Part shown: in pieces, positions 10,345-35,440 of the stretch
Numbering within the stretch: the first letter of the stretch is position 1
Layout of the letters: every line of letters starts with the position of its first letter
IMG/VR virus record: IMGVR_UViG_3300000304_000005
Location: 1-64,000 of that record
Length of the DNA stretch: 64,000 nucleotides
DNA from: a virus
Lineage: Duplodnaviria; Heunggongvirae; Uroviricota; Caudoviricetes
Reading direction: 5' to 3' (one strand)
Notes under the pieces: model-generated
Told to the model about the DNA's origin: nothing
Seen by the model: only the letters and a program-made list of their open reading frames with translations
Databases searched by the model: none
Program-made: the position numbers and the translations under genes

Positions 10345-10416
10345 GCGCTTGTGGTGAAATGGTATCACAGCAGACTCATAATCTGTTAGTTCAGGGTCCG
10401 AATCCCTGCGGGCGCA
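10345..10416 (+). tRNA. tRNA-Met/Ile2 (anticodon CAT)
   Basis: Manual fold: acceptor GCGCTTG/CGGGCGC (two G-U pairs), D stem GTGA/TCAC, anticodon stem GCAGA/TCTGT with loop CTCATAA, T arm CAGGG-TCCGAAT-CCCTG. 72 nt. Flanks extend the acceptor helix. Confidence 0.6.
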
Positions 10417-10448
10417 CGTTGCCAAAATGATATTTGATTATGTTACGC

Positions 10449-10522
10449 GCTCCTATAGCTCAATCGGAAAGAGCCAGAGTTTTCTACACTTTAGGTTGCA
10501 GATTCAAGTTCTGCTAGGAGCG
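10449..10522 (+). tRNA. tRNA-Arg (anticodon TCT)
   Basis: Manual fold: acceptor GCTCCTA/TAGGAGC perfect 7 bp, D stem GCTC/GAGC, anticodon loop TTTCTAC, T arm GCAGA-TTCAAGT-TCTGC. 74 nt. Confidence 0.65.
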
Positions 10523-10554
10523 CGTAGTATAATTGCTACAATGTTTAAAGATGT

Positions 10555-10641
10555 GCCGGTGTGCTGGAACTGGAAGACGGAACGGATTCAAAATCCGCGG
10601 GTAGGAATACCGTGAGGGTTCGACTCCCTCCACCGGTACCA
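10555..10641 (+). tRNA. tRNA-Leu (anticodon CAA), type II with long variable arm, CCA encoded
   Basis: Acceptor GCCGGTG/CACCGGT, anticodon loop TTCAAAA, variable hairpin GGTA-GGAA-TACC, T arm GAGGG-TTCGACT-CCCTC, then ACCA. Confidence 0.55.
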
Positions 10642-10689
10642 TATCGCATTATTTTTATGTTGTTTTAACATATTGGATAGTGATATAAT

Positions 10690-11139
10690 ATGAGTAAAAA
10701 GATTATGGATAATGATGAAATAGCAGTTTATATTAATAAAAATGAACCAAGACTTATGTCGTATATCAAAGAAACACAAAATGTTGTTTCTTATCCAAGA
10801 TATATTATGGCAAAAGAATTAGGTAGAGAACTATTGCCAGACGAAGAAGTTCATCATATCGATGGTAATCCATTAAATAATGATATTAATAATCTACAAG
10901 TTCTTACAAAAGAAGAACACGATAAATTGCACGGAGAACGAAATAGAAAATATTATGATAAAACTATGATATGTCCTTGGTGTGGTAAAGAGTTTTTGTG
11001 GACAGCATATCAGCAACAAAAATTTCATAGTAATATGAGTCGTACAAAATCAAGAACCCATCATCCATTAGGCAAGCCATTTTGCTCTAAAAGTTGTGCT
11101 GGTAAATATGGCAAATTTGTGCAAATGAATTACAAGTAA
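10690..11139 (+). CDS. HNH homing endonuclease
   Basis: EVHHIDGNPLNNDINNLQVLTKEEHDKLH is a classic HNH motif. C-terminal CPWCG Zn finger. Confidence 0.6.
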   Translation: MSKKIMDNDEIAVYINKNEPRLMSYIKETQNVVSYPRYIMAKELGRELLPDEEVHHIDGNPLNNDINNLQVLTKEEHDKLHGERNRKYYDKTMICPWCGKEFLWTAYQQQKFHSNMSRTKSRTHHPLGKPFCSKSCAGKYGKFVQMNYK

Positions 11140-11149
11140 GGGAACAATT

Positions 11150-11539
11150 ATGAAGACAGACCTAAAACAGAATTACCTAAACAAGAAGTATGCGGAGCAT
11201 GACGATGAAGTTGATGTTCCGTATATTCATAAGCGTCCAAAGCGCAAGGTAAAGAAATCAAATCATAAACATGAATATAAAAACTGCGTCATTGTTGATT
11301 CTACGAATCCAAAAGTATTTCAACTTATCGGTCGTTGCAATGAATGCGGTAAGGTGATGAAGCCGGTACATGATAAGTGTATCGATAGGAAGTTTCCGAA
11401 TATCCAATATCAAACTTGGTTTATCAATTACCCCACAGAACATGAACAGGAATATGAAGATTTCAAGGAGTGGTGCAAGAAGCACTATAATACTTATGAC
11501 GTACCGGATTTCGATTTGTGGAAGACGAAGTTTATTTAG
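11150..11539 (+). CDS. hypothetical Zn-binding protein
   Basis: CNECGK...C pattern. 129 aa. Confidence 0.35.
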   Translation: MKTDLKQNYLNKKYAEHDDEVDVPYIHKRPKRKVKKSNHKHEYKNCVIVDSTNPKVFQLIGRCNECGKVMKPVHDKCIDRKFPNIQYQTWFINYPTEHEQEYEDFKEWCKKHYNTYDVPDFDLWKTKFI

Positions 11540-12003
11540 ATTGGATTAAGGATTTTATTATGTCCATAACTAGTTTCGACAGACGGATGTTTCATCAGGC
11601 ATATGTTGAGGCAACCAAGAGCACATTCGACAGATTTCACGTTGGCTGTGTTGTTGTTTACAAAGGACATGTTATTAGTCGTGGTCATAATAGCAAAAAA
11701 ACACATCCAGTCCAACAAAGGCAAAATCGTTTTAGGGTATTAAACAACTATGATAAGCCAAATAATTATTATCCACCAAGCATTCATGCAGAAGTATCTG
11801 CATTGTGCTCAATAAGTTATCCTGTAGGAATAAATATTAAGTGGGATAGGGTAAAAATATATGTAGTTAGAGTCCTTAAAAATGGGGATATGGCATGCTC
11901 TAAACCATGTGCTGCTTGTGAGAATTTGATACGTACACTTGGAATTAAAGGGTGTTATTACTCAGAAAATAATAATTGTTTGGCTTATATTGAGTATTGT
12001 TAA
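11518..12003 (+). CDS. dCMP (deoxycytidylate) deaminase
   Basis: CMP/dCMP deaminase zinc motifs HAEVSAL (HAE) and SKPCAACENLI (PCxxC). Confidence 0.6.
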   Translation: MEDEVYLDWIKDFIMSITSFDRRMFHQAYVEATKSTFDRFHVGCVVVYKGHVISRGHNSKKTHPVQQRQNRFRVLNNYDKPNNYYPPSIHAEVSALCSISYPVGINIKWDRVKIYVVRVLKNGDMACSKPCAACENLIRTLGIKGCYYSENNNCLAYIEYC

Positions 12004-12012
12004 GGAGGTGTT

Positions 12013-13446
12013 ATGTGTAAAAATATACATGAGCAATATGTTGAAAAACTTAAAAAGGTACATTCAAATATTATTGCTATTGATAAATATATTGATATGT
12101 ACACAAATATTGGGCATAAGTGTTTGAAGTGTGGCTACGAATGGAGCGTTAGACCATATAGTTTACTGCATGCAAAATACGGATGTCCAAAATGTTCATA
12201 TGTAGAAAGAGCGAAAGCAAGAAAGCTTACGCAAGAAGAATATAAAAAACGTGTATTAGAAAGTAATCCAAATGTTGAAGTAATCGGTGAATATATTAAT
12301 GCATCGACTCCAATAAAACATGTATGTAAAAAATGTGGATATGGATTAAACGGAGAATGGCTTACTATACCATCTCATATTATGAATGGGCACGGATGTC
12401 CGGTATGCTCTGGAAATATTATAGGCTCAGCCCCAGAATACAAGAATAGTATTTGGTCACAAGATGAATATCTTAATTTCTTTAAAAACTATATGTCAGA
12501 AGAACAAATGAAGATAAACATGCCAAATAGTCACGCAAAAATAGATGTTATTTGCCCTGTTTGTGGGAAACATAAGAACATATCTCCAAATACATTATGG
12601 AAACAGGGGCTTGGTTGTATTTGCAGTGATGGAGTAAGTTATCCAAATAAATTTATGTTCTCATTCTTAGAACAAATTGGGATTGATTTCAATAGAGAAC
12701 AATCATTTGAGTGGAGTAGCGGGAAAATATATGATTTTTATATTCCGTCTTTGAATTGCATTATAGAATGCAATGGAGAGCAGCATTATAAAGGATGGAA
12801 TAAAGTTAAAAATAGCGCTAAGTTTCAACGATTAAACGATGAAGAAAAATATAAGATGGCTATTGATAATGGAGTAAACAAAGATAAATATATTATTATT
12901 GATTGCAGTCGTTCAAATAAAGATTTTATTAAGCACAATATAGAGCAAAGTAATTTGTTAAATATATTGAATATTAATATATCTGACATTGATATTGAAC
13001 AATGTAATATTTTTGCTACAAGCAATTTAGTAAGACGTATTTGCGATATGTGGAACGATAAGCTTACTATCAAACAAATACAAGAAAAAACAAAAATCGT
13101 TACTGTTCGAGAATATTTAAAAAAGGGAAATGAGCTAGGATGGTGCAACGATTATACCGAAAATGAAGCTCGTAAAAGAGGCGCAAGATATAATAAAGGC
13201 AGATGGGTGAATGTTTATTGTTTGGAATTAAATAAAGTGTTTACATCTATATCAGAAGCGGCAAAACAAACCAAATTAAATTCAGAATCAATACGTATGT
13301 GCTGCTCTGGTAAATGGAATCAATATAATAATCAACATTGGTATTATCTTTATGATAAAGCTATGAAGGATGGAACTGAAATTAAGGGTGCTATTGCACT
13401 TGGTTTAATATCAGAAGAAGAGGCTATAAAACAACTTAACATTTGA
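12013..13446 (+). CDS. homing-endonuclease-like protein (tandem Zn-ribbons, endonuclease core, C-terminal NUMOD-like HTH)
   Basis: Repeated CxKCGY...CPxCS Zn-ribbon units. Core IIECNGEQHY (Vsr/PD-(D/E)xK-like). C-terminal VYCLELNKVFTSISEAAKQTKL resembles the DNA-binding modules of phage homing endonucleases. Confidence 0.4.
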   Translation: MCKNIHEQYVEKLKKVHSNIIAIDKYIDMYTNIGHKCLKCGYEWSVRPYSLLHAKYGCPKCSYVERAKARKLTQEEYKKRVLESNPNVEVIGEYINASTPIKHVCKKCGYGLNGEWLTIPSHIMNGHGCPVCSGNIIGSAPEYKNSIWSQDEYLNFFKNYMSEEQMKINMPNSHAKIDVICPVCGKHKNISPNTLWKQGLGCICSDGVSYPNKFMFSFLEQIGIDFNREQSFEWSSGKIYDFYIPSLNCIIECNGEQHYKGWNKVKNSAKFQRLNDEEKYKMAIDNGVNKDKYIIIDCSRSNKDFIKHNIEQSNLLNILNINISDIDIEQCNIFATSNLVRRICDMWNDKLTIKQIQEKTKIVTVREYLKKGNELGWCNDYTENEARKRGARYNKGRWVNVYCLELNKVFTSISEAAKQTKLNSESIRMCCSGKWNQYNNQHWYYLYDKAMKDGTEIKGAIALGLISEEEAIKQLNI

Positions 13447-13457
13447 AAGGAGGGTGA

Positions 13458-13709
13458 TTGATGGAGCAAGATGAAAATGCGCTTACAAATGATGAACAGA
13501 AATTAGTGGAAGATAATCATGAATTAATTTATCTTGTAGCAGATTGTATGGATTTAGATGTTGATGAATATTATGGTTTACTTGCAATTGCTCTATGTCA
13601 TGCTGCTCAAAAATATAAACTGAGAAAACGCGCATATGATTTTTCAGAGTTTGCTAAAATAACTATGATTCGTGAATATTTTATATATGAACGTGGTAAA
13701 TATATGTAA
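13458..13709 (+). CDS. hypothetical protein
   Basis: 83-aa ORF. Confidence 0.3.
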   Translation: MMEQDENALTNDEQKLVEDNHELIYLVADCMDLDVDEYYGLLAIALCHAAQKYKLRKRAYDFSEFAKITMIREYFIYERGKYM

Positions 13710-13744
13710 TTAATAATGTTATATGCTAAGGAGAATATATTCCT

Positions 13745-14923
13745 ATGTATCTTGATAATGCGGCTACGACAAAACCAAGGCAAGAAGTAATCGACACGAC
13801 GCTTGCATATCTTGCAGAATATTGGGAGAATCCATCTGCACTTTCATTCAATAGCCCAAAGATAAAAAAAGATATTGAAATCGCTAGAAATACCGTAGCT
13901 AAATCAATTAATGCTAAGGGCGGTCACAACATCTTCTTTACTTCTGGCGGTAGCGAGGCAAATTGTTGGGCTATTCAAGGATTCATTAACAATCGATTAA
14001 ACAATATGCATGTTCCATATATCATTACTACCAAGATTGAACATAAGTCGATTATGGAATGCGTAAAGAATCAAACGTTAGCAACGGTATATTATCTTGA
14101 TGTAAATACTGACGGATTTATTTCTATTGAAGAGCTTGATGATACAATTTCTTTAATGTTAAGCTGTGGAGTTGAACCAAAAGATATTCTCGTATCGATT
14201 CAATTTGCCAATAATGAAGTCGGTACGATTCAAGATGTTATTAATATCAGCAATGTGTGTCATATGTATGGTTGCGTTTTTCATACCGATGCTGTACAGG
14301 CTTTCGGGCATGTATATATTGACGTTGATGCTATGGGAATCGATATGTTGTCTGCTTCTGCTCATAAGATTGGTGGATGCAAAGGAACGGGCTTTCTATA
14401 CATTAAAGATGGTATTGAAATTAATCCGCTGATTTATGGTAGCCAAATGGATGGTATGCGAGGTGGAACAGAAAACGTTGCAGGAATCATGGGTATGGCT
14501 AAGGCAGTTGAGCTTATTGACCTGAATGACGCAAACAATGCCAAGTTCGCTAGGGATTATTTTATCGATAAGCTTGTTGATATCGGATGTAAACTTAATG
14601 GTCCATATGGAAGTGCTGTATCTCGTTATCGTCTGCCAAATAATATTAACGTGATTCTACCGGACAATATCAACGGAGAAAGTTTTGTTCTCGCCATTTC
14701 AATTGATGGTATTGATATTGGAACTGGTTCTGCTTGCAACTCACATTCTGTTGAACCATCGTATGTTCTTAAGGCAATGGGACTAACGGACGATGAAGCA
14801 AATTGTAGCATTCGTATATCCATTCCGAGTAATATGACGATGGATGATGTTGATAATGTTATGAATAGTATTAAACAAACTATTGATGTTATTTTATCTA
14901 TTCCAGAAAATGAAAATAATTAA
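13745..14923 (+). CDS. cysteine desulfurase (class V aminotransferase, NifS/IscS-like)
   Basis: PLP-lysine motif SASAHKIGGCKGTGFLYIK. C-terminal active-site GSACNSHSVEPSYVLKAMG (IscS SSGSAC...SHVL). Full-length 392 aa. Confidence 0.75.
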   Translation: MYLDNAATTKPRQEVIDTTLAYLAEYWENPSALSFNSPKIKKDIEIARNTVAKSINAKGGHNIFFTSGGSEANCWAIQGFINNRLNNMHVPYIITTKIEHKSIMECVKNQTLATVYYLDVNTDGFISIEELDDTISLMLSCGVEPKDILVSIQFANNEVGTIQDVINISNVCHMYGCVFHTDAVQAFGHVYIDVDAMGIDMLSASAHKIGGCKGTGFLYIKDGIEINPLIYGSQMDGMRGGTENVAGIMGMAKAVELIDLNDANNAKFARDYFIDKLVDIGCKLNGPYGSAVSRYRLPNNINVILPDNINGESFVLAISIDGIDIGTGSACNSHSVEPSYVLKAMGLTDDEANCSIRISIPSNMTMDDVDNVMNSIKQTIDVILSIPENENN

Positions 14924-14932
14924 GGTTATATA
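14923..14932 (+). promoter_or_regulatory. AAGGTTATAT promoter-like motif (copy 1)
   Basis: Exact 10-mer 20 nt upstream of the RNA ligase start. Confidence 0.4.
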
Positions 14933-14951
14933 CTAAGAGAAATGAGCTAAT

Positions 14952-17213
14952 ATGCTAGTAAATGGTGAGCGAGCGCTTGCATACATCGTAACTATCGATG
15001 ATATTACACCTATTGACGGAGCTGATAATATTGAACTTGCGCGTGTTAGTGGCTGGCGGGTAATTGTTAATAAAGAGCAATTTAAACCCGGCGATGCTGC
15101 CGTCTTCTTCGAAATTGATTCATTGGTTCCTGAAACTGAATGGTCTGAATTCTTGCGCCCAAAGAAATTTCGCGTGAAAACATATCGGCTAAATAAATTT
15201 AAAGTTGTATCGCAAGGGCTTCTTATGCCGATGGATATTCTTCCACAGAATAAAACGTTTAATGTTGGTGACGATGTTACCAACATTCTTGGTGTTACCT
15301 ATTACGTCAAGGAAGATAATTATCGTAAAGCAAAAGACGGCAATCCAAATGAGAAGTATAATCGTATGGCAGCAAAGCATCCGAAGCTTGCAAAGAAGAA
15401 GTGGTTCCGTTGGCTCATGAAGCGTATGTGGGGCAAGAAGCTGCTGTTTGTATTTTTGGGTAGACATATTGATGAGAAGAAGTATAAGTTCCCTGATTGG
15501 ATTAAACGCACGGACGAAGAAAGGTGTGAAAATACACCTTGGATTACACAGTCTAAAGAACCGTTTGTTTGCACGGAAAAAATTGACGGTTGTTTCGATT
15601 ATAATACTAAGATTAGAACCAATGAGGGCCATATTCCAATTGGTAGAATTGTTAATCAGAAATTACCGATTCTAGTTGCATCTTACAATGAAGACAAACA
15701 AATCGTAGAATATAAAAATATTGTTGATTATCATAAAATCAAAGTATCACATCCAGTTCTAAAAATTGGCGTTGGTTATCGTGGACATGGCAACAGAAAT
15801 AAATATATTACATGTACTGATAACCATGAATTTTATACACCGACCGGATGGAAACAAGCGAAGGATTTAAAGCAGGGAGATATCGTATATCATTTTACCG
15901 AGTCTTTCCCGTATGAAATTAAGCAACTTATTCTAGGAAGCTTGCTTGGAGATGCATCTATTAATGCAAACGATAAAGACGGTGGATATAGGTGTGTTCA
16001 TTTTACACAATCAGACAAGCAAATTGCTTATTTTAATTACAAGAAGAACCTTCTTGGGAAATATGCGTTGGGAGAAAGGACAAGGACAAGCGGATATGGA
16101 AGCTTGATGCATGATATGCATACTACTACAAATCTTGAGCTTAATAAATTCTTAAATGAACATTGCATGAAAAACGGGAAGAAGTTTGTTACCCAAGAAT
16201 GGTGCAACGAACTTGACCCTATGGGCCTAGCCTTCTGGTATATGGATGATGGAAGTATTGCTAACCGCGATAACGACAAGCTTGGATGTAGAATTCATAT
16301 TTCAACAAATGGGTTTTCTCTACAAGAGAATGAAACGTTGGCAAATATGCTAAGAGACAGGTTCGGCATCGAGGCTACGATTGGAGACAAAGAAACGTAT
16401 AAGGGATATACGCTTATTCTTGATGTGAAAAATACCGAAAGGTTCTGTTCGTTGATTGCTCCATATGTATGCAATAGTATGAAATACAAACTCCCCAAAA
16501 AGTATCAAGATATAAAGTGCTGCTATGATAACATTTGCTTTGATTCTGGTATGAACATTGTTGAAGTTGATATTAAGTCCATAGAGAATATTGATGAACA
16601 CAAAGAATATTTCTTTGACCTTACGATTGAAGATAATCATAATTATTTTGCACAGTCTATCCTTGTTCATAATTGTTCCACAACGGTGTTTCTAGACGCA
16701 ACAAAACGTAAGCACGATTTTGGAGTGTGCTCTAGAAATGTTAGGCAAATAACACCAGATATAGAGAATTACCATACTAAATCTTCTGGAACAAATGTGT
16801 ATTGGGAAATGGCATTGAAGTATGATATGCAAAATGCACTTGAAGATATCGCAAAGAAATATGATGTTCAACGTGTTGTGCTTCAGGGAGAGACATATGG
16901 AGAAGCCATTCAGGGAAATCCATTGCACCTAAAGTATCGTGATTTTGCCGCATTTAATCTTGTGTTTGATGGCGAGCGACTAGGTTCAATTCAGGCAAAG
17001 GAAATTCTTGATGATTACAAGATTCCCTTTGTTCCAATTATTGACGATGCATATTATATGCCAGACACATTTGAAGAGCTTAAGAAACAAGCAGACGGTA
17101 AGAGCACAATCAATCATAAATGTCTACGCGAAGGATTCGTTTATCGTAGCTATGATGGTAAGCAATCTGCTAAAAACGTTAGTGTAAAATATCTGCTTAA
17201 GCAAAAAGATTAA
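14952..17213 (+). CDS. RNA ligase (DRB0094/Rnl-like nucleotidyltransferase) interrupted by an in-frame intein
   Basis: N-terminal LAYIVTIDDITPIDGADNIELARVSGWRVIVNKEQFKPGDAAVFFEIDSLVP matches the RNA-ligase family N-domain. Ligase motif I CTEKIDG is followed immediately by the intein Cys1. Extein resumes at CSTTVFLDATKRK. Confidence 0.6.
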   Translation: MLVNGERALAYIVTIDDITPIDGADNIELARVSGWRVIVNKEQFKPGDAAVFFEIDSLVPETEWSEFLRPKKFRVKTYRLNKFKVVSQGLLMPMDILPQNKTFNVGDDVTNILGVTYYVKEDNYRKAKDGNPNEKYNRMAAKHPKLAKKKWFRWLMKRMWGKKLLFVFLGRHIDEKKYKFPDWIKRTDEERCENTPWITQSKEPFVCTEKIDGCFDYNTKIRTNEGHIPIGRIVNQKLPILVASYNEDKQIVEYKNIVDYHKIKVSHPVLKIGVGYRGHGNRNKYITCTDNHEFYTPTGWKQAKDLKQGDIVYHFTESFPYEIKQLILGSLLGDASINANDKDGGYRCVHFTQSDKQIAYFNYKKNLLGKYALGERTRTSGYGSLMHDMHTTTNLELNKFLNEHCMKNGKKFVTQEWCNELDPMGLAFWYMDDGSIANRDNDKLGCRIHISTNGFSLQENETLANMLRDRFGIEATIGDKETYKGYTLILDVKNTERFCSLIAPYVCNSMKYKLPKKYQDIKCCYDNICFDSGMNIVEVDIKSIENIDEHKEYFFDLTIEDNHNYFAQSILVHNCSTTVFLDATKRKHDFGVCSRNVRQITPDIENYHTKSSGTNVYWEMALKYDMQNALEDIAKKYDVQRVVLQGETYGEAIQGNPLHLKYRDFAAFNLVFDGERLGSIQAKEILDDYKIPFVPIIDDAYYMPDTFEELKKQADGKSTINHKCLREGFVYRSYDGKQSAKNVSVKYLLKQKD
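15591..16673 (+). mobile_element. intein (361 aa) with LAGLIDADG homing-endonuclease domain
   Basis: Starts CFDYNTKIRTNEGHIPIGRIV (A block). Ends ...SILVHN followed by extein +1 Cys. Two LAGLIDADG motifs LILGSLLGDASI and LAFWYMDDGSI. Confidence 0.6.
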
Positions 17214-17227
17214 AAGGATGTGGTTTT

Positions 17228-17596
17228 GTGTATCGTATTTATGATGCTGAAAATAATTGTTGGCGAAATGATATGATTGTATTTGATGATGGTGCATTAG
17301 GAGTGTTAAACAATTCATTATTTCACTCATATAATGTAGATGTTATTTATGATGAGTCTCCATATACTGTTCATTATCCCACTGGTATCATTGATAAAAA
17401 CGGCTTTGAGATTTTTGAAGGAGATATTTGTACATGTCCAAATGAAACCAGTGGCGTTGTGGCGTTTAGTTCTCAGATTGGCGCATATTGTATTTTTGAT
17501 GATGATAATCATCTATATTATGTTCTTGACGATGAAGGTGCTGGCTTTACTGAAATTGTTGGAAATGTGTTTGATGGTGTTAAAGTAGTTAGGTAA
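17228..17596 (+). CDS. YopX-family protein
   Basis: MYRIYDAENNCW ... IIDKNGFEIFEGDI matches the YopX signature (DKNGkeIyEGDI). Confidence 0.5.
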   Translation: MYRIYDAENNCWRNDMIVFDDGALGVLNNSLFHSYNVDVIYDESPYTVHYPTGIIDKNGFEIFEGDICTCPNETSGVVAFSSQIGAYCIFDDDNHLYYVLDDEGAGFTEIVGNVFDGVKVVR

Positions 17597-17600
17597 ATTT

Positions 17601-18473: not shown

Positions 18474-18544
18474 ATTTTATGAAGATATAAAAGCTAATTT
18501 GATTTTAAAACAATTATTGAGTACAATTATCTTGTAATACTAAT

Positions 18545-18554
18545 AAGGTTATAT
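18545..18554 (+). promoter_or_regulatory. AAGGTTATAT promoter-like motif (copy 2)
   Basis: Exact 10-mer 25 nt upstream of start 18579. Confidence 0.4.
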
Positions 18555-18578
18555 ATCTGTAGCTAGGAGGATATATTA

Positions 18579-20611: not shown

Positions 20612-20612
20612 T

Positions 20613-26984: not shown

Positions 26985-27020
26985 CAGAAACATTCGTTTA
27001 TTTTATGAGGGATAACAGAA

Positions 27021-27299: not shown

Positions 27300-27342
27300 A
27301 TATTATGTAGCGACACAACAAATAAATATATATGCTATAATG

Positions 27343-27373
27343 CTGGGGAGGTTGGGAAATCAGCCTCCCCTTA
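27343..27373 (+). terminator. hairpin terminator-like element
   Basis: GGGGAGG...CCTCCCC hairpin then TTATT. TATAAT box just upstream (27336). Confidence 0.35.
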
Positions 27374-27397
27374 TTAGAATAGAGAGATGGGATATAT

Positions 27398-28201
27398 ATG
27401 GTTAATAATGATGTGCTATATAATCGACTTCAACAGCAACTTAATGAAGCACTAAATTCTAATCATAGCATCTATGATTGGTTCATAATTGCATCTAATG
27501 GCAGCATGAACTACGGTCTTGACAACGAAGATTCGGATATCGATTCAAAGCTTCTGGTGATTCCAAGCCTTCATGATTTAGTATTTAACAATCGACAGAA
27601 CTATCTGCACGAGATGTCTGATAACGACGAACATGTAGAAATTAAAGATATCGCACTATATATGAAAACAATTTTAAAGCAGAATATCAATTTTGTTGAA
27701 ACGCTATTTGCAAAATGTACAATCGTAAACCAGAAATATAAGAAGTATTGGCATGTTCTTCAAGAGCGCCGTGAAGAAATAGCGCGATATGACGAAAAAC
27801 GAGCTTGTCAATGTATGTTGGGAATGATGAAGCAGAAGCGAAAGCAAATGATAAAGCCTACTCCGGGTAGACAGAAAAGCATTGACATGATTGGATATGA
27901 CGCAAAGAGTTATCATCATCTATTGAGACTGTATTATTTTTTGAATCATTATCTTAATGGCATGAATTATGAAGATTGTCTGATTATGAGAAGTATGGAT
28001 GAACAAACAATTCTTATGGCTGCTAAAAAGGGAATATATGGTTTAAAACTAGCTATATATGACGCTGATTTAAAGATAAAAATGGCAGAAAATATTATTG
28101 CTAATTATATGTTTAATATTGATGAAAGTGAGCAAAAGCATATCGAAGGTTTAATTGATGGTGTTGTATACGGCGTTATCGAAAGAACTGTAAAGGAATA
28201 A
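27398..28201 (+). CDS. Pol-beta superfamily nucleotidyltransferase
   Basis: Motif NGS-x10-DID (IIASNGSMNYGLDNEDSDIDSKLLVIP) fits hG[GS]x9-13 Dh[DE]h. Confidence 0.45.
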   Translation: MVNNDVLYNRLQQQLNEALNSNHSIYDWFIIASNGSMNYGLDNEDSDIDSKLLVIPSLHDLVFNNRQNYLHEMSDNDEHVEIKDIALYMKTILKQNINFVETLFAKCTIVNQKYKKYWHVLQERREEIARYDEKRACQCMLGMMKQKRKQMIKPTPGRQKSIDMIGYDAKSYHHLLRLYYFLNHYLNGMNYEDCLIMRSMDEQTILMAAKKGIYGLKLAIYDADLKIKMAENIIANYMFNIDESEQKHIEGLIDGVVYGVIERTVKE

Positions 28202-28203
28202 AT

Positions 28204-28992
28204 ATGAAAGATAAATATTCCGATAGACTCGGTGAAATACAGTTGATGCATTGTGGCGATTACGCAAAGATAATTGAATATAATAGTTCTCTTGACGTGG
28301 TTGTTCAATTTCAGGATGAACATGGTTATATATGCCATGTAGAATATTGGAACTTCAAGAAAGGTCATGTAAAGAACCCCTATCATAAAAATAAATATGG
28401 TGGCTATGTTGGAGAGGGAAAATATAAATCCACAGAAAATAGAAAAGGTACTTATATATATAATGCTTGGATAAGAATGCTAGAAAGAAGTAAAAACAAG
28501 AAGTTTAAAGAGAAATTTCCTGCATATAAAGACGTAGATTGCTGTGATGAATGGCTGTGCTTTCAAAACTTCGCTGAATGGTATGAAGAAAATTATTACG
28601 AAGTTAATGGTCAATCAATGGAGGTAGATAAAGACTGGTTGCATCAAGGCAACAAAATATATTGTCCTGAATTTTGTTCTGTTGTTCCAAGTATAATTAA
28701 CTCATGTTTGCTGACACATGAGAAAACCAAAGGTAATCTTCCGATTGGCATTTCTAAAACTACAGGCAATAAATATAAGGCAAGAATAAGTATCGAAGGA
28801 AAAAGAAAAGATTTAGGAGTTTATGTTGATTTGATTGATGCATTAAATGCGTATAAGAAAGCAAAAATAGATTATGTAAAATATTTGGCAAATAAATATA
28901 GGGACGTACTTCCAAAAAAAGTATATAACCAAATGATACATTTTGATAAAAGATTCGAGGTGGAATTTCCTGAGTATGCAGCGATACATTAA
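28204..28992 (+). CDS. HNH-AP2 type homing endonuclease
   Basis: C-terminal AP2-like NKYKARISIEGKRKDLGVYVDLIDALNAYKKAK. N-terminal region paralogous to 19850. Confidence 0.45.
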   Translation: MKDKYSDRLGEIQLMHCGDYAKIIEYNSSLDVVVQFQDEHGYICHVEYWNFKKGHVKNPYHKNKYGGYVGEGKYKSTENRKGTYIYNAWIRMLERSKNKKFKEKFPAYKDVDCCDEWLCFQNFAEWYEENYYEVNGQSMEVDKDWLHQGNKIYCPEFCSVVPSIINSCLLTHEKTKGNLPIGISKTTGNKYKARISIEGKRKDLGVYVDLIDALNAYKKAKIDYVKYLANKYRDVLPKKVYNQMIHFDKRFEVEFPEYAAIH

Positions 28993-31900: not shown

Positions 31901-32083
31901 ATTCAAACTAGAATCAAGCGGGCTTCTGTATTTAAAGAACAACCGTTCGGTTTATATTCTATTTTGCGAATGGACAAGATTGTATATGAGCCGAAGAAAA
32001 AGAAAATGCCTGATGGAACTTGGGTTGATAGCGATGTAACAGAGCCTATCTTGTGCGGATATGAAACAATCAAGAAGGAGTAA
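28943..32083 (+). CDS. dnaE: DNA polymerase III alpha subunit (PHP + polymerase core)
   Basis: PHP domain HKHTHYSNLRSLD...TTEHG...GVEAYYVDD. 1046 aa. Confidence 0.7.
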   Translation: MIKDSRWNFLSMQRYINFHKHTHYSNLRSLDCISKPEDYMKRAVELGHKEYVTTEHGFQSNIYEAYTLCQKYGLKCVYGVEAYYVDDIYDKTSRANYHIVLIALTEKARKEINKIMSIANTDGFYYKPRIDLKCLLSLTPTDTIVTTACVASRMFKDGWEKKFLIPVYNHFKDNFYLEVQNHNESIQIEHNKKLLQVKDKYGIKLIHANDSHYIYPKDAKYRDLFLKAKGIVYEDESNFILDYPDYDTVVQRYKEQGVLNDEQIQEALDNTLIIDKAEGITINKEFKIPKISDGDSNKALRKILRNAWKEEKKKISTDRIKEYENAIYYETKIVKNCGMADYFILDHEIVKKAVNEYGAVLTRSGRGSAVSFYINHLLGLTEVDRLNSPITLYPTRFMSAERILSSRSLPDIDLNFADVKPVIKASKDILGDDGIYYMIAYKPLQEASAFRLWCKAIGMHIDEYNDVAKNMDSYIEDRKWGKIIEDSKVFRKVIESVAPSPCSFLLLDKPISEEVGLIKVGDEICCAIDGYNCDVYKFLKNDYLTVSVYRIISMVYELIGRPIDDIETLLSNCDDKVWDIYAKGLTTTVNQCDSDIGKNMLKQYQPKTLAEISAWVAAIRPGFASLLNNFLERKPYSTGVDSLDEILEDSFHYLLYQESIMKYLVWLGIEEKGTYDIIKKIAKKKFTPQEQEELHKKLEEGWVKKLGTNEGFAQTWQVVQDAARYSFNASHSLSVAIDSLYGAYLKSHYPLEYFTVVLSLYADDNDRTPKLISELPYFGVSLKPIKFGKSSADYTMDKNTNSIYRGIASVKYCNAQIADELMQLSKTHYDSFIDLLYDIDNKTSVNSRQLEILTKLNFFSDFGKNKRLLRIIDIYDKFANAKIISKKKLDGLDISEFLIKKYAGKETKSQYRELDNAGLMKELCNRIDDDSMNIVDQVKAENEYLGSVSYTNPKVKGYYWIVTMFNDSRNSTRPYVTIRRICNGEEIQTRIKRASVFKEQPFGLYSILRMDKIVYEPKKKKMPDGTWVDSDVTEPILCGYETIKKE

Positions 32084-32092
32084 CGCAAGAAG

Positions 32093-34417
32093 ATGTATAA
32101 GAATAAGAATCAAAATCCATCGGTTAAATTCAAGGCAACTGTTATCAGAGCTATTTATGAAAAAGATGGATTCGGTATCTATGCTACGCAGGTAAGCACA
32201 CGTGCATATCCATTTCTTAAGTTGAACCAGTATGGCAATGTAAGCATCATGGGAGATATTGCGCCATTAACCATCGGTGTTGAATATGAAATCACGGCAT
32301 CAGAAGAAGAAGCGAAATATGGATATCAGTATAGAGTATCCAATATTTGTCGCGATGTACCAGTAGGACAAGAAGCTGTACGTGCATTTCTAAATGAAAT
32401 TCTTACTGTGAATCAGGCTGATGAATTGTATAGTAAATATCCCGATATCATCGAACGTGTTCGTAAAGATAAACTTGATGATATTGATTTATCTCAATTG
32501 CATGGTATCGGTGAATATACATTTAATAAAATCGTTGAAAAGATTACAAAGAATTTTCATTTAGCGGATATTGTCGCAGAATTTAAAGGTGTATTGACTT
32601 TAAACATGATGAATAAACTATATGATAGATATGGTTCTATTCAAAATATCAAAAAACAATTGAAGAAAGCTCCGTATAGTGCGTTGACAAATATTGATGG
32701 AGTCGGATTTAAAATTGCAAATTCAATTATCCTTACATTGCAAGACGAAGGAATATTTGATTTTGGATTTGATATCAAAACAAGTGTCGATAGATGTTCC
32801 GCATGCATTATTTACCTTCTCAGAGAAAACGAGAAGGAGGGGCATACAAAGATGAATCTTTGGGATGTAAAAAAACAATGTGAAGACCTTGTTCCGATGT
32901 GTGCAGATAAGTTCTATCAGGCACTGGATAACAACGATATCTATTACAATATTGATAGTGCAGAGGTTGCAATTCAAAGCACGCATATAAAGGAAGCTTA
33001 TATCGCTCAAATTATCATTGATAATATAAACAACATTAATCTGTGGAAATGTGATATAAAGAAATATAAAAATATTAACGAGATAGAACTTACAGATGAA
33101 CAATTAAAAGTTGTACAAAACGTATGCATGTATCCAATTAGTATCCTGAATGGCCCTGCCGGTTCGGGAAAGACAGCTAGTACGCAGGCAATTATCGCAA
33201 TGCTTGATGACTTGGGAAAGACATACAAAATCATGTCACCAACCGGTAAAGCTGCTAAGGTTATCAGCGAATATACTGGACGTGAAGCAACAACTATTCA
33301 TCGCGGCTTGGGCTATGGTCCTCCAACGAAATTAAATCCTGCCGGTGTATGGTATTATAATGACCAGCATAAAGTGCAAGAAGACGTTATGATTATCGAT
33401 GAGGTTTCAATGGTGGATGTCAATTTATTCTATCGTCTTATATCGGCAATTGACTTTACACATACAAAACTTCTTATGATTGGAGACAATGCGCAGCTGC
33501 CATCTGTCGGCTGCGGAAACATACTTCATGACTTTATGCAAAGCAATTTGATTCCAACGGTAACGCTAGCAAAAATTTTCCGATATGGAGAAGGCGGCTT
33601 AATGAAAGTTGCTACAGATATCCGTATGGGGAAACGATATCTTGATTCATCAATGAAAGACAAGAAAACGTTGTTTGGCAAGAACGGCGATTATGTATTC
33701 TTAGATGTTGCGCCTGAGAAATCAGTTAGAATCGCTGTAGAAATTTATAAGAAACTGATAGAATCAGGATGCAAAATTGAAGATGTACAAGTTATTACAC
33801 CTAAAAATGTGGGTAAATATGGAACTGTCGAGCTTAATAAGCTTCTTCAACTTGTTGCAAATCCGAATGCAAAAGATAAAGATGCAATATGTATGACGTT
33901 CGATAATGTTGTATATTATGAGGGCGATTTAATTATCGAAACAAAAAACAATTATGATGCTCCATTATCTCCTGATTATCCTATTCCTAGCTATATTTTC
34001 GTACCAGACGATGAAGAAATTGTACCTACGGCATTTATCGCAAATGGTGAAAACGGTATAGTTAAGAAAGTTGGTAAAAATTTCATCGATATTGCATTCG
34101 GCGATGTCGTTGTTCGATATGATAGGGCTATGGCACAAATGATTAATCTTGGATATGCAATCACTTGTCATAAATCGCAGGGTTCATCTATTAATAACGT
34201 TATTTTAATCACCACTCAATCCGATATCTTCACTCTTAATTCAAATCTTGTATATGTTGGCTGCACACGAGCGAGAAATCGTTGTTTCCATATTGGTTCG
34301 GTAGATACAATGAATAAAGTTATTAAAAAGAAAATTAATCTTACTCGTCATACATTTATGCAGCAATTACTTAGAGAATATGTAAAAAATATGAAGGCAC
34401 AAAATACAAATAATTAA
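32093..34417 (+). CDS. RecD/Dda-like SF1 helicase
   Basis: Walker A ILNGPAGSGKT, Walker B MIIDEVSMVD, motif V/VI ITCHKSQGSSINNVILI. Confidence 0.65.
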   Translation: MYKNKNQNPSVKFKATVIRAIYEKDGFGIYATQVSTRAYPFLKLNQYGNVSIMGDIAPLTIGVEYEITASEEEAKYGYQYRVSNICRDVPVGQEAVRAFLNEILTVNQADELYSKYPDIIERVRKDKLDDIDLSQLHGIGEYTFNKIVEKITKNFHLADIVAEFKGVLTLNMMNKLYDRYGSIQNIKKQLKKAPYSALTNIDGVGFKIANSIILTLQDEGIFDFGFDIKTSVDRCSACIIYLLRENEKEGHTKMNLWDVKKQCEDLVPMCADKFYQALDNNDIYYNIDSAEVAIQSTHIKEAYIAQIIIDNINNINLWKCDIKKYKNINEIELTDEQLKVVQNVCMYPISILNGPAGSGKTASTQAIIAMLDDLGKTYKIMSPTGKAAKVISEYTGREATTIHRGLGYGPPTKLNPAGVWYYNDQHKVQEDVMIIDEVSMVDVNLFYRLISAIDFTHTKLLMIGDNAQLPSVGCGNILHDFMQSNLIPTVTLAKIFRYGEGGLMKVATDIRMGKRYLDSSMKDKKTLFGKNGDYVFLDVAPEKSVRIAVEIYKKLIESGCKIEDVQVITPKNVGKYGTVELNKLLQLVANPNAKDKDAICMTFDNVVYYEGDLIIETKNNYDAPLSPDYPIPSYIFVPDDEEIVPTAFIANGENGIVKKVGKNFIDIAFGDVVVRYDRAMAQMINLGYAITCHKSQGSSINNVILITTQSDIFTLNSNLVYVGCTRARNRCFHIGSVDTMNKVIKKKINLTRHTFMQQLLREYVKNMKAQNTNN

Positions 34418-34418
34418 A

Positions 34419-34461
34419 CAATGACGGTTGGTGTACAATACAAGTATGCCAACTGTCATTG
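34419..34461 (+). terminator. hairpin terminator-like element
   Basis: 13-bp stem CAATGACGGTTGG/CCAACTGTCATTG after the helicase stop. Confidence 0.4.
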
Positions 34462-34492
34462 TTATATGCTATAAAAATAAAAAAGGAGTAGT

Positions 34493-35440
34493 GTGAAAAG
34501 TTCAACTATAACTATGCTTTGTGGCTTACCGGCTTCAGGCAAATCAACATATGCAAAGAAACTTGCAAAAGATATGAATGCAATAATCATTAGTTCCGAT
34601 GCATTGCGATTAGAGATGTTTGGTGACGAGACGGACCAAAACTATAATCAGCAGGTATTTCAAGAGCTTCATAAAAGAGCAAAAAAACATCTGCGTGCTG
34701 GTAGAAACATAATTTATGATTCTACGAATATATCATCTAAACGCAGGCGAGGATTTCTCAATGAGCTTAAGAATATCGATTGCCGTAAGGAATGCATTAT
34801 TATAGCAACTCCATATGAACAATGCCTTGAGAACAATAGGAACAGAGAGCGCAAAGTTCCAGAATGGGTAATCGAGAAAATGTATCGCAAGTGGCAAACC
34901 CCACATACATTTGAGGGTTTTGATAAGGTTGATATTAAATATTGGGACAATGAACATTTTGTAGAAGAAACAGATATTGTGAATTCTCTTCTTGATTTTG
35001 ACCAGCAAAATCCTCATCATTCACTTACTCTTGGTGAACATTTACTGAAGACATGGCAAACATGTCACCTTAATGATTTTAATCTTATTGATTCTTTGGA
35101 TATTTTAAGCGCATGTCTCGTGCATGATTGTGGCAAACCATTTGTTAAGACGTTTACCAATGTAAAAGGAGAGGCCACAAATATCGCACATTATTATGAC
35201 CATGAACATGTATCAGCATATGAATCATTGTTTATACAGCAAGGTGTTCTAAAAGAAGGCTGGGATTATATTGCTCCAAATATCGTGAATGTTTCTGCTC
35301 TTGTTACATGGCATATGCAACCCTACTATTGGGAGAAAGACAACAACGAAAAGCTCCGAAATAAATACAAAAAGATTTGGGGAGAAGAACTTTATCGTTC
35401 TATTATGGCGTTACACGAAGCAGATAAAGCTGCGCATTAA
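34493..35440 (+). CDS. polynucleotide kinase (P-loop) fused to HD-domain phosphohydrolase
   Basis: N-terminal MLCGLPASGKSTYAKKLA ... RNRERKVPEWVIEKMYRKWQTP (T4 Pnk-like kinase). C-terminal HD motifs HHSLTLGEH ... LVHDCGKP ... D. Confidence 0.6.
   Translation: MKSSTITMLCGLPASGKSTYAKKLAKDMNAIIISSDALRLEMFGDETDQNYNQQVFQELHKRAKKHLRAGRNIIYDSTNISSKRRRGFLNELKNIDCRKECIIIATPYEQCLENNRNRERKVPEWVIEKMYRKWQTPHTFEGFDKVDIKYWDNEHFVEETDIVNSLLDFDQQNPHHSLTLGEHLLKTWQTCHLNDFNLIDSLDILSACLVHDCGKPFVKTFTNVKGEATNIAHYYDHEHVSAYESLFIQQGVLKEGWDYIAPNIVNVSALVTWHMQPYYWEKDNNEKLRNKYKKIWGEELYRSIMALHEADKAAH

What the first reader, a model, noticed from the sequence alone, without database searches (positions are those of the whole stretch)
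10345..35440. Candidate tRNA-repair toolkit: kinase-HD end-healing enzyme, RNA ligase and own tRNAs
The window encodes an RNA ligase (14952), a polynucleotide 5'-kinase fused to an HD phosphohydrolase (34493..35440), three tRNAs (Met/Ile2-CAT, Arg-TCT, Leu-CAA) and a cysteine desulfurase. T4 Pnkp (kinase+HAD phosphatase) plus Rnl1 repair anticodon-nuclease damage. Here the HAD phosphatase is replaced by an HD domain, which in CCA-adding enzymes has 2',3'-cyclic phosphodiesterase/phosphatase activity. The fusion could therefore be a noncanonical end-healing enzyme countering host tRNA-targeting defence.
Basis: inference. Interest (0 to 1): 0.6.

Follow-up and report, generated by a model that had tools for sequence, protein, structure and literature searches.

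The report
Phage RNA-repair kit with kinase-HD healer
This phage of gut Clostridia carries the three enzymes needed to mend cut RNA: an end-healing kinase fused to an HD phosphoesterase, a gap-filling nucleotidyltransferase and an intein-interrupted RNA ligase, which is an uncharacterised domain arrangement of a known kind of system, not a new kind.

Summary

The ligase (14952-17213) is Rnl5-type (NgrRnl/DraRnl), not T4 Rnl1-type.

Across 100 related loci (47 lineages), 42 lineages have an RNA ligase and/or RlaP within 10 kb of Pnk-HD. These often form an overlapping ligase-(RlaP)-PnkHD operon, with Rnl5- or Rnl1-type ligases interchangeable. In this window the cassette is dispersed.

RNA end-healing and repair is therefore well supported by inference; the tRNA target and counter-defence role are plausible but untested. 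The tRNAs and the cysteine desulfurase are not shown to belong. HD+Pnk healing enzymes are already characterised in the reverse domain order, so this is a new variant of a known kind, of moderate interest.

The parts
34493..35440 (+). Pnk-HD: bifunctional end-healing enzyme candidate (315 aa). The kinase domain is about aa 1-150 (DNA 34493-34942). The HD phosphoesterase domain is about aa 152-315 (DNA 34946-35437).
14952..17213 (+). Rnl5-family ATP-dependent RNA ligase precursor (753 aa). N-extein is 14952-15590, intein 15591-16673, C-extein 16674-17213.
   Evidence: Pfam finds PHA02142 OB, RNA_ligase, Intein_splicing and LAGLIDADG_2. The spliced 392-aa extein matches NgrRnl over both domains at 3e-42, with K210-I-D-G aligned to NgrRnl motif I 170-KLDG.
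15591..16673 (+). Intein (361 aa) with a LAGLIDADG homing endonuclease, inserted immediately after ligase motif I (EKIDG|C...HN|CS).
   Evidence: Cys1, block B TDNH, terminal HN and +1 Cys are read from the translation. TIGR01445/01443 intein N- and C-terminal models and LAGLIDADG_2 (1e-31) match. The same architecture occurs in at least 120 metagenomic protein clusters.
27398..28201 (+). RlaP-family Pol-beta nucleotidyltransferase (267 aa), a candidate 3'-end gap filler.
   Evidence: PF10127 scores 29.9 bits against a cut-off of 23, and phrog_388 nucleotidyltransferase also matches. The GS...DID signature is at aa 34-49. In many relatives it lies directly upstream of Pnk-HD. Its biochemistry is described in PMC12776372.
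13745..14923 (+). NifS/IscS-type cysteine desulfurase, 28 bp upstream of the ligase. Its membership in the repair set is not shown.
   Evidence: Searches give the annotation. It lies within 10 kb of Pnk-HD in 13 of 47 lineages and adjacent to the ligase in 5. It is absent from the Bacillus-phage and Konateibacter loci.
10345..10417 (+). tRNA with anticodon CAT (elongator Met or Ile2, not an initiator). Its membership in the repair set is not shown.
   Evidence: The G1-C72 pair and the lack of three G-C pairs in the anticodon stem are read from the sequence. The Ile2-versus-Met question was not resolved.
10449..10523 (+). tRNA-Arg (TCT). Its membership in the repair set is not shown.
   Evidence: AGA makes up 30% of Arg codons in 31 window ORFs. 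Arg-TCT recurs in 7 of 30 related loci.
10555..10641 (+). tRNA-Leu (CAA). Its membership in the repair set is not shown.
   Evidence: TTG makes up 15% of Leu codons. Leu-CAA recurs in 9 of 30 related loci.

Best explanation
The window encodes a dispersed three-enzyme RNA-repair set of a temperate or large phage of Clostridia (probably Lachnospiraceae).

Step 2: Pnk-HD (34493-35440) heals both ends. The N-terminal P-loop kinase transfers the NTP gamma-phosphate to the 5'-OH, with D36 as general base, R39 positioning the acceptor, and K17/S18/Mg2+ and lid R118/R120 on the donor. The C-terminal binuclear HD domain opens the cyclic phosphate and removes the 2'/3'-phosphate to give a 2',3'-diol.

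Step 3: if a nucleotide was excised, RlaP (27398-28201) adds one or two NMPs to the 3'-OH.

Step 4: the Rnl5 ligase (14952-17213) excises its intein to restore motif I (K210). It is then adenylylated and seals the 3'-OH/5'-PO4 break.

What is shown here: domain identities, conservation of catalytic residues, fold, and conserved gene linkage. What is inferred: every enzymatic activity, intein splicing, the RNA (tRNA) substrate and the counter-defence purpose.
For: Kinase:
- The residues essential in CthPnk (K21, S22, D38, R41, R120/R123; PMC3902929) are invariant here.

HD:
- The H..HD..H..H..D set is invariant across 32 homologs down to 35% identity.
- All 22 family members tested hit Pfam HD.

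Characterised precedent:
- Runella and Deinococcus HD-Pnk are end-healers.
- The Deinococcus kinase domain is 32% identical to this one (2e-18).

Gene linkage:
- In Bacillus phage Skywalker the homolog overlaps a 'tRNA ligase' gene by 4 bp.
- In L004 the ligase and Pnk-HD genes overlap by 8 bp. In L005 they are separated only by a GIY-YIG homing endonuclease.
- Of 47 lineages (100 loci), 38 have an RNA ligase within 10 kb, 31 have one within 1.5 kb, and 42 have a ligase or RlaP. All such genes are on the same strand as Pnk-HD.
- Rnl5-type, T4-Rnl1-type (PF09511) and a third ligase type occupy the same slot.

Other support:
- RlaP adds NMPs to damaged RNA 3' ends and restores tRNA function in vitro (PMC12776372).
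- In the Konateibacter prophage the cassette lies 7 kb from a Gad1 anti-defence gene.
Against: - No enzymatic or genetic data exist for any Pnk-HD member.
- In this window the three genes are not adjacent. The ligase is 17 kb from Pnk-HD, and RlaP is separated from it by an HNH gene, PolIII-alpha and RecD2. Co-regulation is therefore assumed, not shown.
- Characterised Rnl5 ligases prefer nicked duplexes to single-stranded loops. DraRnl and Deinococcus HD-Pnk act in recovery from DNA damage.
- The window protein alone scores below Pfam's HD threshold (17 vs 22 bits).
- The host and its nucleases are unknown.
- The loci compared are related phages, so part of the linkage is inherited synteny. 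The swapping of ligase families and the Bacillus-phage case argue that it is more than that.
Confidence: 0.65

Rival explanations
1. The set is a DNA or RNA-DNA junction repair and replication accessory. Pnk-HD heals 5'-OH/3'-phosphate ends in phage DNA or at ribonucleotide-terminated nicks. The Rnl5 ligase then seals nicks whose 3'-OH strand is RNA. This would mirror Deinococcus, where DraRnl and HD-Pnk promote recovery from ionising radiation.
For: - Rnl5 enzymes seal duplex nicks with a 3'-OH RNA strand and accept DNA on the 5'-PO4 and template strands.
- Both the DraRnl and Deinococcus HD-Pnk knockouts are radiation-sensitive.
- Runella HD-Pnk is described as a DNA/RNA end-healing enzyme.
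- In the window, Pnk-HD sits directly after PolIII-alpha and RecD2 in the replication module.
- No DNA ligase was seen among the window ORFs that were scanned.
Against: - The cassette's constant partners are RNA-specific. RlaP acts on RNA, not DNA, among cellular macromolecules.
- In several lineages the ligase slot is filled by T4-Rnl1-type ligases, the tRNA anticodon-loop repair type.
- The ancestral position in relatives is next to the ligase, in an early or auxiliary region with tRNA arrays, not next to the polymerase.
Confidence: 0.2
2. The co-occurrence is not a system. The ligase, RlaP, Pnk-HD, tRNAs and desulfurase are independent auxiliary genes that share a large phage genome.
For: - The genes are dispersed over 25 kb in the window and interleaved with replication genes and at least six homing endonucleases.
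- Promoter and terminator scans give no operon signal above shuffled controls.
- The tRNAs and the desulfurase show only loose association.
Against: For ligase, RlaP and Pnk-HD, adjacency with overlapping reading frames recurs in most lineages, with different ligase families. It also recurs in distant Bacillus phages at 33% identity.
Confidence: 0.07
3. The kinase-HD protein acts on small molecules or on tRNA-bound groups, not on polynucleotide ends. It could be a (d)NMP or nucleoside kinase with an HD nucleotidase/dNTPase for pool control, or a PSTK/KTI12-like tRNA-dependent kinase.
For: - The kinase also matches KTI12 (1.5e-18) and PSTK (TIGR03574 1e-23, far below its cut-off).
- NrdD/NrdG, dUTPase, dCMP deaminase and FolD show that the phage invests in nucleotide metabolism.
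- HD domains include dNTPases and nucleotidases.
Against: - The best sequence and fold matches are polynucleotide kinases.
- The acceptor-site Asp-Arg pair and Gln49/Thr78, which contact the polynucleotide in CthPnk, are conserved.
- The closest HD is the tRNA-nucleotidyltransferase type, not SAMHD1 or YfbR types.
- Linkage is to RNA ligases, not to nucleotide-metabolism genes.
Confidence: 0.05

Closest known systems
HD-Pnk of Runella slithyformis and Deinococcus radiodurans (DR_B0098), bifunctional end-healing enzymes
   Same: It has the same two catalytic modules, a 5'-OH polynucleotide kinase and an HD 2',3'-phosphoesterase. The kinase domains are homologous (32% identity over 136 aa, E 2e-18, with DR_B0098). 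The genes are operonic with, and overlapped by, an ATP-dependent ligase gene in Runella, as in relatives of this phage.
   Different: The domain order is reversed: kinase N-terminal and HD C-terminal here, HD N-terminal there. The HD domains are only distantly alike (hhalign probability 54%, 27 columns around HDxGK). All of the best 150 of 625 representative HD relatives that are near full length (about 300 aa) carry the HD at the C-terminus. This is a phage family rather than a cellular one, and its partner ligase is Rnl5- or Rnl1-type.
T4 Pnkp plus Rnl1 (anticodon-nuclease PrrC counter-defence)
   Different: The phosphatase is an HD metal-dependent hydrolase, not a DxDxT HAD acylphosphatase. 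The ligase in this window is Rnl5 (N-terminal OB, nick-sealing), not Rnl1. No cognate host nuclease is known.
Clostridium thermocellum Pnkp (Pnkp-Hen1 bacterial RNA repair)
   Different: CthPnkp carries a calcineurin-type binuclear metallophosphoesterase and a fused ligase domain, and it works with the Hen1 methyltransferase. None of these is present here.
Rnl5 family RNA ligases (DraRnl, NgrRnl)
   Same: The spliced extein matches NgrRnl end to end (3e-42). It has the signature N-terminal OB domain, motif I KxDG, and no C-terminal appendage.
   Different: A 361-aa LAGLIDADG intein interrupts it after motif I. It scores below the TIGR02306 equivalog cut-off (122 vs 151 bits). It is phage-encoded and linked to Pnk-HD and RlaP.
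HD domain of class-II tRNA nucleotidyltransferases (E. coli CCA-adding enzyme; Aquifex A-adding enzyme 3wfo-3wfs)
   Different: Here the HD is fused to a kinase, not to a Pol-beta CCA-adding head.

Membership tests
Polynucleotide 5'-kinase (P-loop; T4 Pnk / CthPnk clade) | Walker A P-loop GxxxxGK[ST] with catalytic Lys and Mg-binding Ser | tested here: met
   The motif 11-GLPASGKS-18 is present. G11, S15, G16, K17 and S18 are invariant in 32 homologs and align with CthPnk K21/S22.
Polynucleotide 5'-kinase (P-loop; T4 Pnk / CthPnk clade) | General-base Asp and its orienting Arg in the 5'-OH acceptor site (CthPnk D38/R41; T4 D35/R38) | tested here: met
   D36 and R39 in SSDALR are invariant and align with CthPnk SSDFCR. 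Their roles are taken from PMC3902929.
Polynucleotide 5'-kinase (P-loop; T4 Pnk / CthPnk clade) | Lid arginines contacting the NTP gamma-phosphate (CthPnk R120/R123) | tested here: met
   R118 and R120 are invariant and align with the CthPnk 120-RTDRQVE lid.
Polynucleotide 5'-kinase (P-loop; T4 Pnk / CthPnk clade) | Closest neighbours are polynucleotide kinases, not nucleoside or antibiotic kinases | tested here: met
Polynucleotide 5'-kinase (P-loop; T4 Pnk / CthPnk clade) | 5'-OH RNA/DNA kinase activity | not testable with these tools
   Requires a biochemical assay.
HD metal-dependent phosphohydrolase superfamily | H...HD...D metal-ligand motif (plus two further His in binuclear members) | tested here: met
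   H176, H211-D212, H237, H274 and D311 are invariant across 32 sequences down to 35% identity. K215 of HDxGK is also invariant.
HD metal-dependent phosphohydrolase superfamily | Significant match to the Pfam HD model (PF01966, gathering score 22 bits) | tested here: inconclusive
HD metal-dependent phosphohydrolase superfamily | 2',3'-cyclic phosphodiesterase and 2'/3'-phosphatase activity on RNA ends | not testable with these tools
   Inferred from the nearest characterised HD domains.
HD-Pnk (Runella / Deinococcus type) | Homologous 5'-OH kinase domain | tested here: met
   BLASTP against D. radiodurans DR_B0098 (L102 22659-23897, minus strand) gives 32% identity, E 2e-18, query aa 6-141 against aa 266-398.
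HD-Pnk (Runella / Deinococcus type) | HD domain N-terminal to the kinase | tested here: not met
   Here the kinase is aa 1-150 and the HD aa 152-315. In DR_B0098 the HDxGK motif is at aa 64-90 and the kinase at 266-398. Among 150 representative relatives, every near-full-length one has the HD at the C-terminus.
HD-Pnk (Runella / Deinococcus type) | Same HD subfamily | tested here: inconclusive
   hhalign gives probability 54%, E 1e-4, over only 27 columns around HDxGK.
T4-type Pnkp | C-terminal DxDxT (HAD) 3'-phosphatase domain | tested here: not met
   No HAD match appears in Pfam, NCBIfam or the PDB. The C-terminal half is an HD domain.
Rnl5 RNA ligase (DraRnl/NgrRnl) | N-terminal OB domain plus a nucleotidyltransferase domain with motif I KxDG, and no C-terminal appendage | tested here: met
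   PF21189 hits aa 9-94 at 2e-21. The spliced extein aligns with NgrRnl residues 3-123 and 138-339 of 339 (3e-42). K210-IDG aligns with 170-KLDG.
Rnl5 RNA ligase (DraRnl/NgrRnl) | NCBIfam equivalog TIGR02306 above its cut-off (151 bits) | tested here: not met
   The spliced extein scores 122.2 bits and the precursor 105.1 bits. It is therefore a divergent member.
Rnl5 RNA ligase (DraRnl/NgrRnl) | ATP/Mn-dependent sealing of nicks with an RNA 3'-OH strand | not testable with these tools
   This is the known activity of DraRnl and NgrRnl.
Class-1 intein with LAGLIDADG homing endonuclease | Cys/Ser1, block B TxxH, C-terminal HN, +1 Cys/Ser/Thr, and two LAGLIDADG motifs | tested here: met
   C214, T-D-N-H, H573-N574 and C575 are present, along with LILGSLLGDAS and LAFWYMDDGS. 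TIGR01445, TIGR01443 and PF03161 match.
RlaP (PF10127) RNA-repair nucleotidyltransferase | Pfam match above the gathering score and the Pol-beta GS...DxD signature | tested here: met
   The score is 29.9 bits against a cut-off of 23. G34-S35...D47-I-D49 are present.
RlaP (PF10127) RNA-repair nucleotidyltransferase | Genomic association with an RNA ligase | tested here: inconclusive
   In the window it lies 10 kb from the ligase and 6 kb from Pnk-HD. In 16 of 47 related lineages it lies between or beside the ligase and Pnk-HD, for example L015, L095 and L096.
Phage counter-defence against anticodon nucleases (T4 PrrC paradigm) | A cognate host tRNA-cleaving nuclease, and a repair-dependent phage phenotype | not testable with these tools
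   The host genome is not available. The host is only inferred to be Lachnospiraceae/Clostridia.

The most novel reading that the evidence does not exclude
The cysteine desulfurase is a working part of the repair pathway. Suppose a wobble-excising nuclease (RloC-like) removes a thiolated U34 and RlaP refills the gap with plain UMP. The phage NifS/IscS enzyme would then feed sulfur to the host thiouridylase, so that the resealed tRNA regains s2U34 and its decoding function. That would make CysDes-Rnl-RlaP-PnkHD a four-step 'repair and re-modify' module. A second untested idea is that the Cys1/Cys+1 intein in ligase motif I acts as a conditional (redox-sensitive) switch on ligase activity.
Probability: 0.06. 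Interest if true: 0.75.

Novelty: new variant of a known kind. Interest (0 to 1): 0.38.

Why it matters
If the biochemistry holds, Pnk-HD would be a fourth architecture of RNA end-healing enzyme. The three known ones are T4 kinase-HAD, bacterial kinase-metallophosphoesterase-ligase and HD-Pnk.

The family is large. At least 1,366 protein clusters at 90% identity match the whole protein, and 625 clusters at 50% identity match the HD half at E<=1e-10. It is concentrated in phages and prophages of gut and rumen Clostridia and in Bacillus phages.

The near-universal pairing with RNA ligases and RlaP implies that RNA-cleaving defences are a common selective pressure on these phages, and it points to hosts where such nucleases should be sought. 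A single small polypeptide with 5'-kinase and 2',3'-cyclic-phosphate esterase activity would also be a practical reagent for RNA-end repair.

The intein lodged in motif I of an RNA ligase is a clean example of a mobile element targeting a repair enzyme's active site.

Tried and rejected
- Megablast of 27000-36000 against 50,697 phage records gave no match, so the phage has no close sequenced relative.
- An exact-sequence contig look-up of the window's own Pnk-HD found nothing on record.
- I first read phrog_6931 (kinase matched at profile positions 185-341 of 343) as a reversed HD-Pnk family. I rejected this because the HD half alone hits no PHROG at E<=0.001.
I repeated it without that row.
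- The original HD-Pnk paper (PMC5237116) and Burroughs & Aravind 2016 are not held. HD-Pnk facts are therefore taken from papers that cite them.
- RlaP has no sequence match among solved structures.
- Aligning the window's CAT tRNA with CAT and TAT tRNAs of relatives, to decide between Met and Ile2, was uninformative.
- Promoter and terminator scans over 10000-29900 did not exceed shuffled controls: 105 vs 98 promoter-like sites and 14 vs 9 terminator-like sites.
- Rfam found no group I intron in the gaps of the split nrdD, at gathering score or at E<=1.
- The first tblastn pass missed divergent ligases. A Pfam scan of the ORF just upstream of Pnk-HD in ten 'empty' loci found a ligase in eight.
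- I considered that the desulfurase is specifically linked to the cassette. I rejected this as unproven, because its frequency (13 of 47 lineages) is close to that of the dCMP deaminase control (9 of 47).
- Full-text searches for a described Pnk-HD or kinase-HD architecture found only HD-Pnk.

Full report
**1. What is there**

ARAGORN and Rfam agree on three + strand tRNAs at 10345-10417 (CAT), 10449-10523 (Arg-TCT) and 10555-10641 (Leu-CAA).
- a NifS/IscS-type cysteine desulfurase (13745-14923), with the PLP lysine and catalytic cysteine intact;
- an RNA ligase (14952-17213);
- a 315-aa kinase-HD protein (34493-35440).

The kinase-HD gene has a GTG start preceded by AGGAG, and its N-terminus matches homologs that begin with ATG.

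The surrounding 25 kb is a replication and nucleotide-metabolism module:
- dCMP deaminase, FolD, an AAA_24 ATPase, a DnaB-like helicase, a primase and a PD-(D/E)XK nuclease;
- PolIII-alpha, RecD2, a split NrdD with NrdG, and dUTPase.

It is heavily colonised by homing endonucleases.

**2. The kinase-HD protein**

Kinase half:
- Its best match among solved structures is the kinase domain of C. thermocellum Pnkp (5e-17). PSTK, Pnkp1 and T4 Pnk follow.
- An AlphaFold model built on 31 homologs is confident (pLDDT 90.6).
- The residues that PMC3902929 shows to be essential in CthPnk (K21, S22, D38, R41, lid R120/R123) correspond to K17, S18, D36, R39, R118 and R120 here. All are invariant in 32 homologs spanning 35-86% identity.

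HD half:
- On its own it scores below Pfam's HD threshold.
- The family alignment shows an invariant H176...H211-D212...H237...H274...D311 set plus K215 of HDxGK.
- All 22 family members tested match Pfam HD.
- A profile of the HD half hits only one group of solved proteins strongly: the HD region of the Aquifex class-II tRNA nucleotidyltransferase (5e-8).
- The HD of the E. coli enzyme of that class removes 2',3'-cyclic phosphate from tRNA ends (Yakunin 2004, as cited in PMC6961547).

**3. The ligase**

The 753-aa product contains a 361-aa intein (aa 214-574, DNA 15591-16673). It has Cys1, block B TDNH, terminal HN, a +1 Cys and two LAGLIDADG motifs. It is inserted directly after motif I: EKIDG|C...HN|CS.

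The spliced 392-aa extein aligns end to end with Naegleria NgrRnl (3e-42). This covers both the signature N-terminal OB domain and the nucleotidyltransferase domain, and K210 aligns with the NgrRnl nucleophile K170.

It is thus an Rnl5-family ligase, though a divergent one (122 bits against the TIGR02306 cut-off of 151). Characterised Rnl5 enzymes seal nicked duplexes whose 3'-OH strand is RNA, and their physiology is largely uncharted.

Intein-bearing ligases of this architecture are common in metagenomes: at least 120 clusters at 38-100% identity, some about 1,115 aa long.

**4. A missed component**

ORF 27398-28201 is an RlaP nucleotidyltransferase (PF10127 above threshold; GS...DID signature). 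RlaP was named for its association with RNA ligases. A 2025 preprint shows that it adds one or two NMPs to the 3'-OH of damaged RNA and helps restore aminoacylation of over-trimmed tRNA.

**5. Comparative genomics**

The fusion is a large family. At least 1,366 clusters at 90% identity match the whole protein, nearly all 295-335 aa long. In addition, 625 clusters at 50% identity match the HD half at E<=1e-10. Among the 150 best of these, every near-full-length protein has the HD at the C-terminus.

Examples of linkage:
- In Tsamsa-like Bacillus phages (33% identity) the gene is annotated 'polynucleotide kinase'. In Skywalker it overlaps the upstream 'tRNA ligase' gene by 4 bp.
- In metagenomic relative L004 the ligase and Pnk-HD genes overlap by 8 bp. 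They sit inside the same dCMP deaminase - desulfurase - ligase - FolD - AAA_24 neighbourhood as in the window.
- In L005 only a GIY-YIG endonuclease separates the two genes.

I fetched 80 viral and 15 bacterial-genome loci and searched them with the window's proteins and with additional ligases. I then collapsed them to 47 lineages at 70% Pnk-HD identity:
- 38 lineages have an RNA ligase within 10 kb.
- 31 have one within 1.5 kb.
- 16 have RlaP.
- 42 have a ligase or RlaP, always on the same strand as Pnk-HD.

Typical orders are Rnl5-PnkHD and Rnl5-RlaP-PnkHD. Examples are L015, and L095/L096 in Konateibacter and Lacrimispora genomes.

The ligase slot is filled by Rnl5-type, T4-Rnl1-type (PF09511) or a third ligase type. 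That swapping argues for functional coupling rather than mere inherited synteny.

The window's own lineage (L002, L003, L007) is an exception. There Pnk-HD has moved behind PolIII-alpha and RecD2, and RlaP sits before them.

Bacterial hits are in Lachnospiraceae and other Clostridia. This fits the SLH-domain endolysin and the integrase in the window. In the Konateibacter prophage a Gad1 anti-Gabija gene lies 7 kb upstream of the cassette.

**6. The tRNAs and the desulfurase**

- The CAT tRNA has a G1-C72 pair and lacks the initiator's three G-C pairs in the anticodon stem, so it is an elongator Met or an Ile2 tRNA. The comparison with relatives did not decide which.
- AGA is 30% of Arg codons, ATA 16% of Ile codons and TTG 15% of Leu codons in 31 window ORFs.
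- Related loci carry from 0 to 12 tRNAs upstream of the cassette. Arg-TCT and Leu-CAA recur in the nearest clades.
- Codon supplementation explains this as well as decoy or replacement tRNAs do. Nothing ties the tRNAs to the repair genes.
- The desulfurase lies within 10 kb in 13 of 47 lineages and next to the ligase in 5. The unrelated dCMP deaminase is within 10 kb in 9 of 47. The desulfurase is absent from the Bacillus-phage and Konateibacter loci.
- A mundane client exists in the window: the radical-SAM, 4Fe-4S activase NrdG at 42705-43226.

**7. Mechanism**

The best-supported account has four steps.
1. [quoted passage not shown]
2. Pnk-HD phosphorylates the 5' end and strips the 3' end.
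3. RlaP refills an excised nucleotide when needed.
4. The spliced Rnl5 ligase seals the break.

Shown here: domain identity, catalytic-residue conservation, fold and gene linkage. Inferred: all activities, splicing, the substrate and the purpose. I put 0.65 on RNA repair by this trio, and about 0.45 on the narrower claim that the substrate is tRNA cut by a host defence nuclease.

**8. Rivals**

The serious rival (0.2) is DNA or hybrid-nick repair. Rnl5 enzymes accept DNA on two of the three strands. DraRnl and Deinococcus HD-Pnk both protect against ionising radiation. In this genome Pnk-HD also sits in the replication module. Against it stand the RNA-specific partner RlaP and the Rnl1-type ligases found in the same slot.

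The other rivals are weak. Chance co-occurrence is largely excluded for the three enzymes. A small-molecule or PSTK-like role is contradicted by the acceptor-site residues, the structural neighbours and the linkage.

**9. Relation to known systems and novelty**

The closest known enzymes are the HD-Pnk end-healers of Runella and Deinococcus.
- The kinase domains are homologous (32% identity, 2e-18).
- The domain order is reversed.
- The HD halves are barely alignable.
- For these reasons I do not file this protein as a member of that family.

Relative to T4 Pnkp it keeps the order kinase-then-phosphatase but uses a non-homologous phosphatase.

A comparative survey of jumbo phages already remarks that HD-like domains occasionally supply the phosphatase in phage RNA repair (PMC7824862). 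GenBank records already call the Bacillus-phage homologs polynucleotide kinase. Full-text searches found no description or assay of the kinase-HD order.

The verdict is a new variant of a known kind. It is solid and widespread, but would not surprise a specialist. Interest is 0.38.

Noticed in passing
window 51373-54500 (- strand): A complete diversity-generating retroelement. It has a reverse transcriptase ORF (51373-52419), a template repeat (52793-52932) and a variable repeat (53202-53341) at the 3' end of a 441-aa ORF (53175-54500). Of the 27 TR-to-VR differences, 25 fall at template adenines.
   Followed up: partly
window 38800-42701 (+): The anaerobic ribonucleotide reductase gene nrdD is split into three ORFs (38800-39465, 39783-40271, 41715-42701). 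A NUMOD3 endonuclease ORF (40442-41230) lies in the second gap. The same three-part split occurs in relative L002. Rfam finds no group I intron in the gaps, so their nature (divergent introns or otherwise) is unexplained.
   Followed up: partly
window 15591-16673; proteins P0121-P0240: The intein after motif I of the Rnl5 ligase is not a one-off. At least 120 metagenomic protein clusters (38-100% identity) share the OB-intein-LAGLIDADG-ligase architecture. Several are 1,108-1,120 aa long, suggesting a second intein. L030 has a 35%-identical intein abutting the C-terminal part of its ligase. I found no paper describing an intein in an ATP-dependent RNA ligase.
   Followed up: partly
window 10690-11139, 12013-13446, 28204-28992, 35457-36170, 40442-41230, 43235-44356, 48545-49243: The density of free-standing homing endonuclease genes (HNH, HNH-AP2, GIY-YIG, NUMOD3) is unusually high, in addition to the intein endonuclease. 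Several sit exactly where relatives have adjacent repair or replication genes. For example, an HNH gene lies between RlaP and PolIII-alpha, and a GIY-YIG gene lies between the ligase and Pnk-HD in L005.
   Followed up: no
L095 829-1710 (Konateibacter massiliensis NZ_LT860099.1): A Gad1 (Gabija anti-defence 1) homolog (PF25705, 3e-62) lies about 7 kb upstream of the Rnl5-RlaP-PnkHD cassette, in what looks like a prophage of an isolate genome. This suggests the cassette sits in an anti-defence region.
   Followed up: no
window 28943-32083 versus L002 4408-7596: The PolIII-alpha of the closest relative is only 43% identical to the window's. The flanking RlaP and RecD2 are 92% identical. This points to a mosaic replacement of the polymerase gene.
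   Followed up: no
window 2254-3420 and 7470-8270: The window holds an endolysin with an Amidase_5 domain and three SLH (S-layer homology) domains, and a tyrosine integrase. Together with Pnk-HD hits in Roseburia, Konateibacter, Lacrimispora and Agathobacter genomes, this suggests a temperate phage of S-layer-bearing Clostridia.
   Followed up: partly
L004 7910-8353: In one relative a YqeY/GatB-like domain protein (PF09424) lies between the cysteine desulfurase and the RNA ligase. No equivalent was identified in the window.
   Followed up: no
window 34422-34460: A 12-bp imperfect inverted repeat (AATGACGGTTGG...CCAACTGTCATT) lies between the RecD2 stop codon and the Pnk-HD ribosome-binding site. 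No T-run follows it, and its role is unknown.
   Followed up: no
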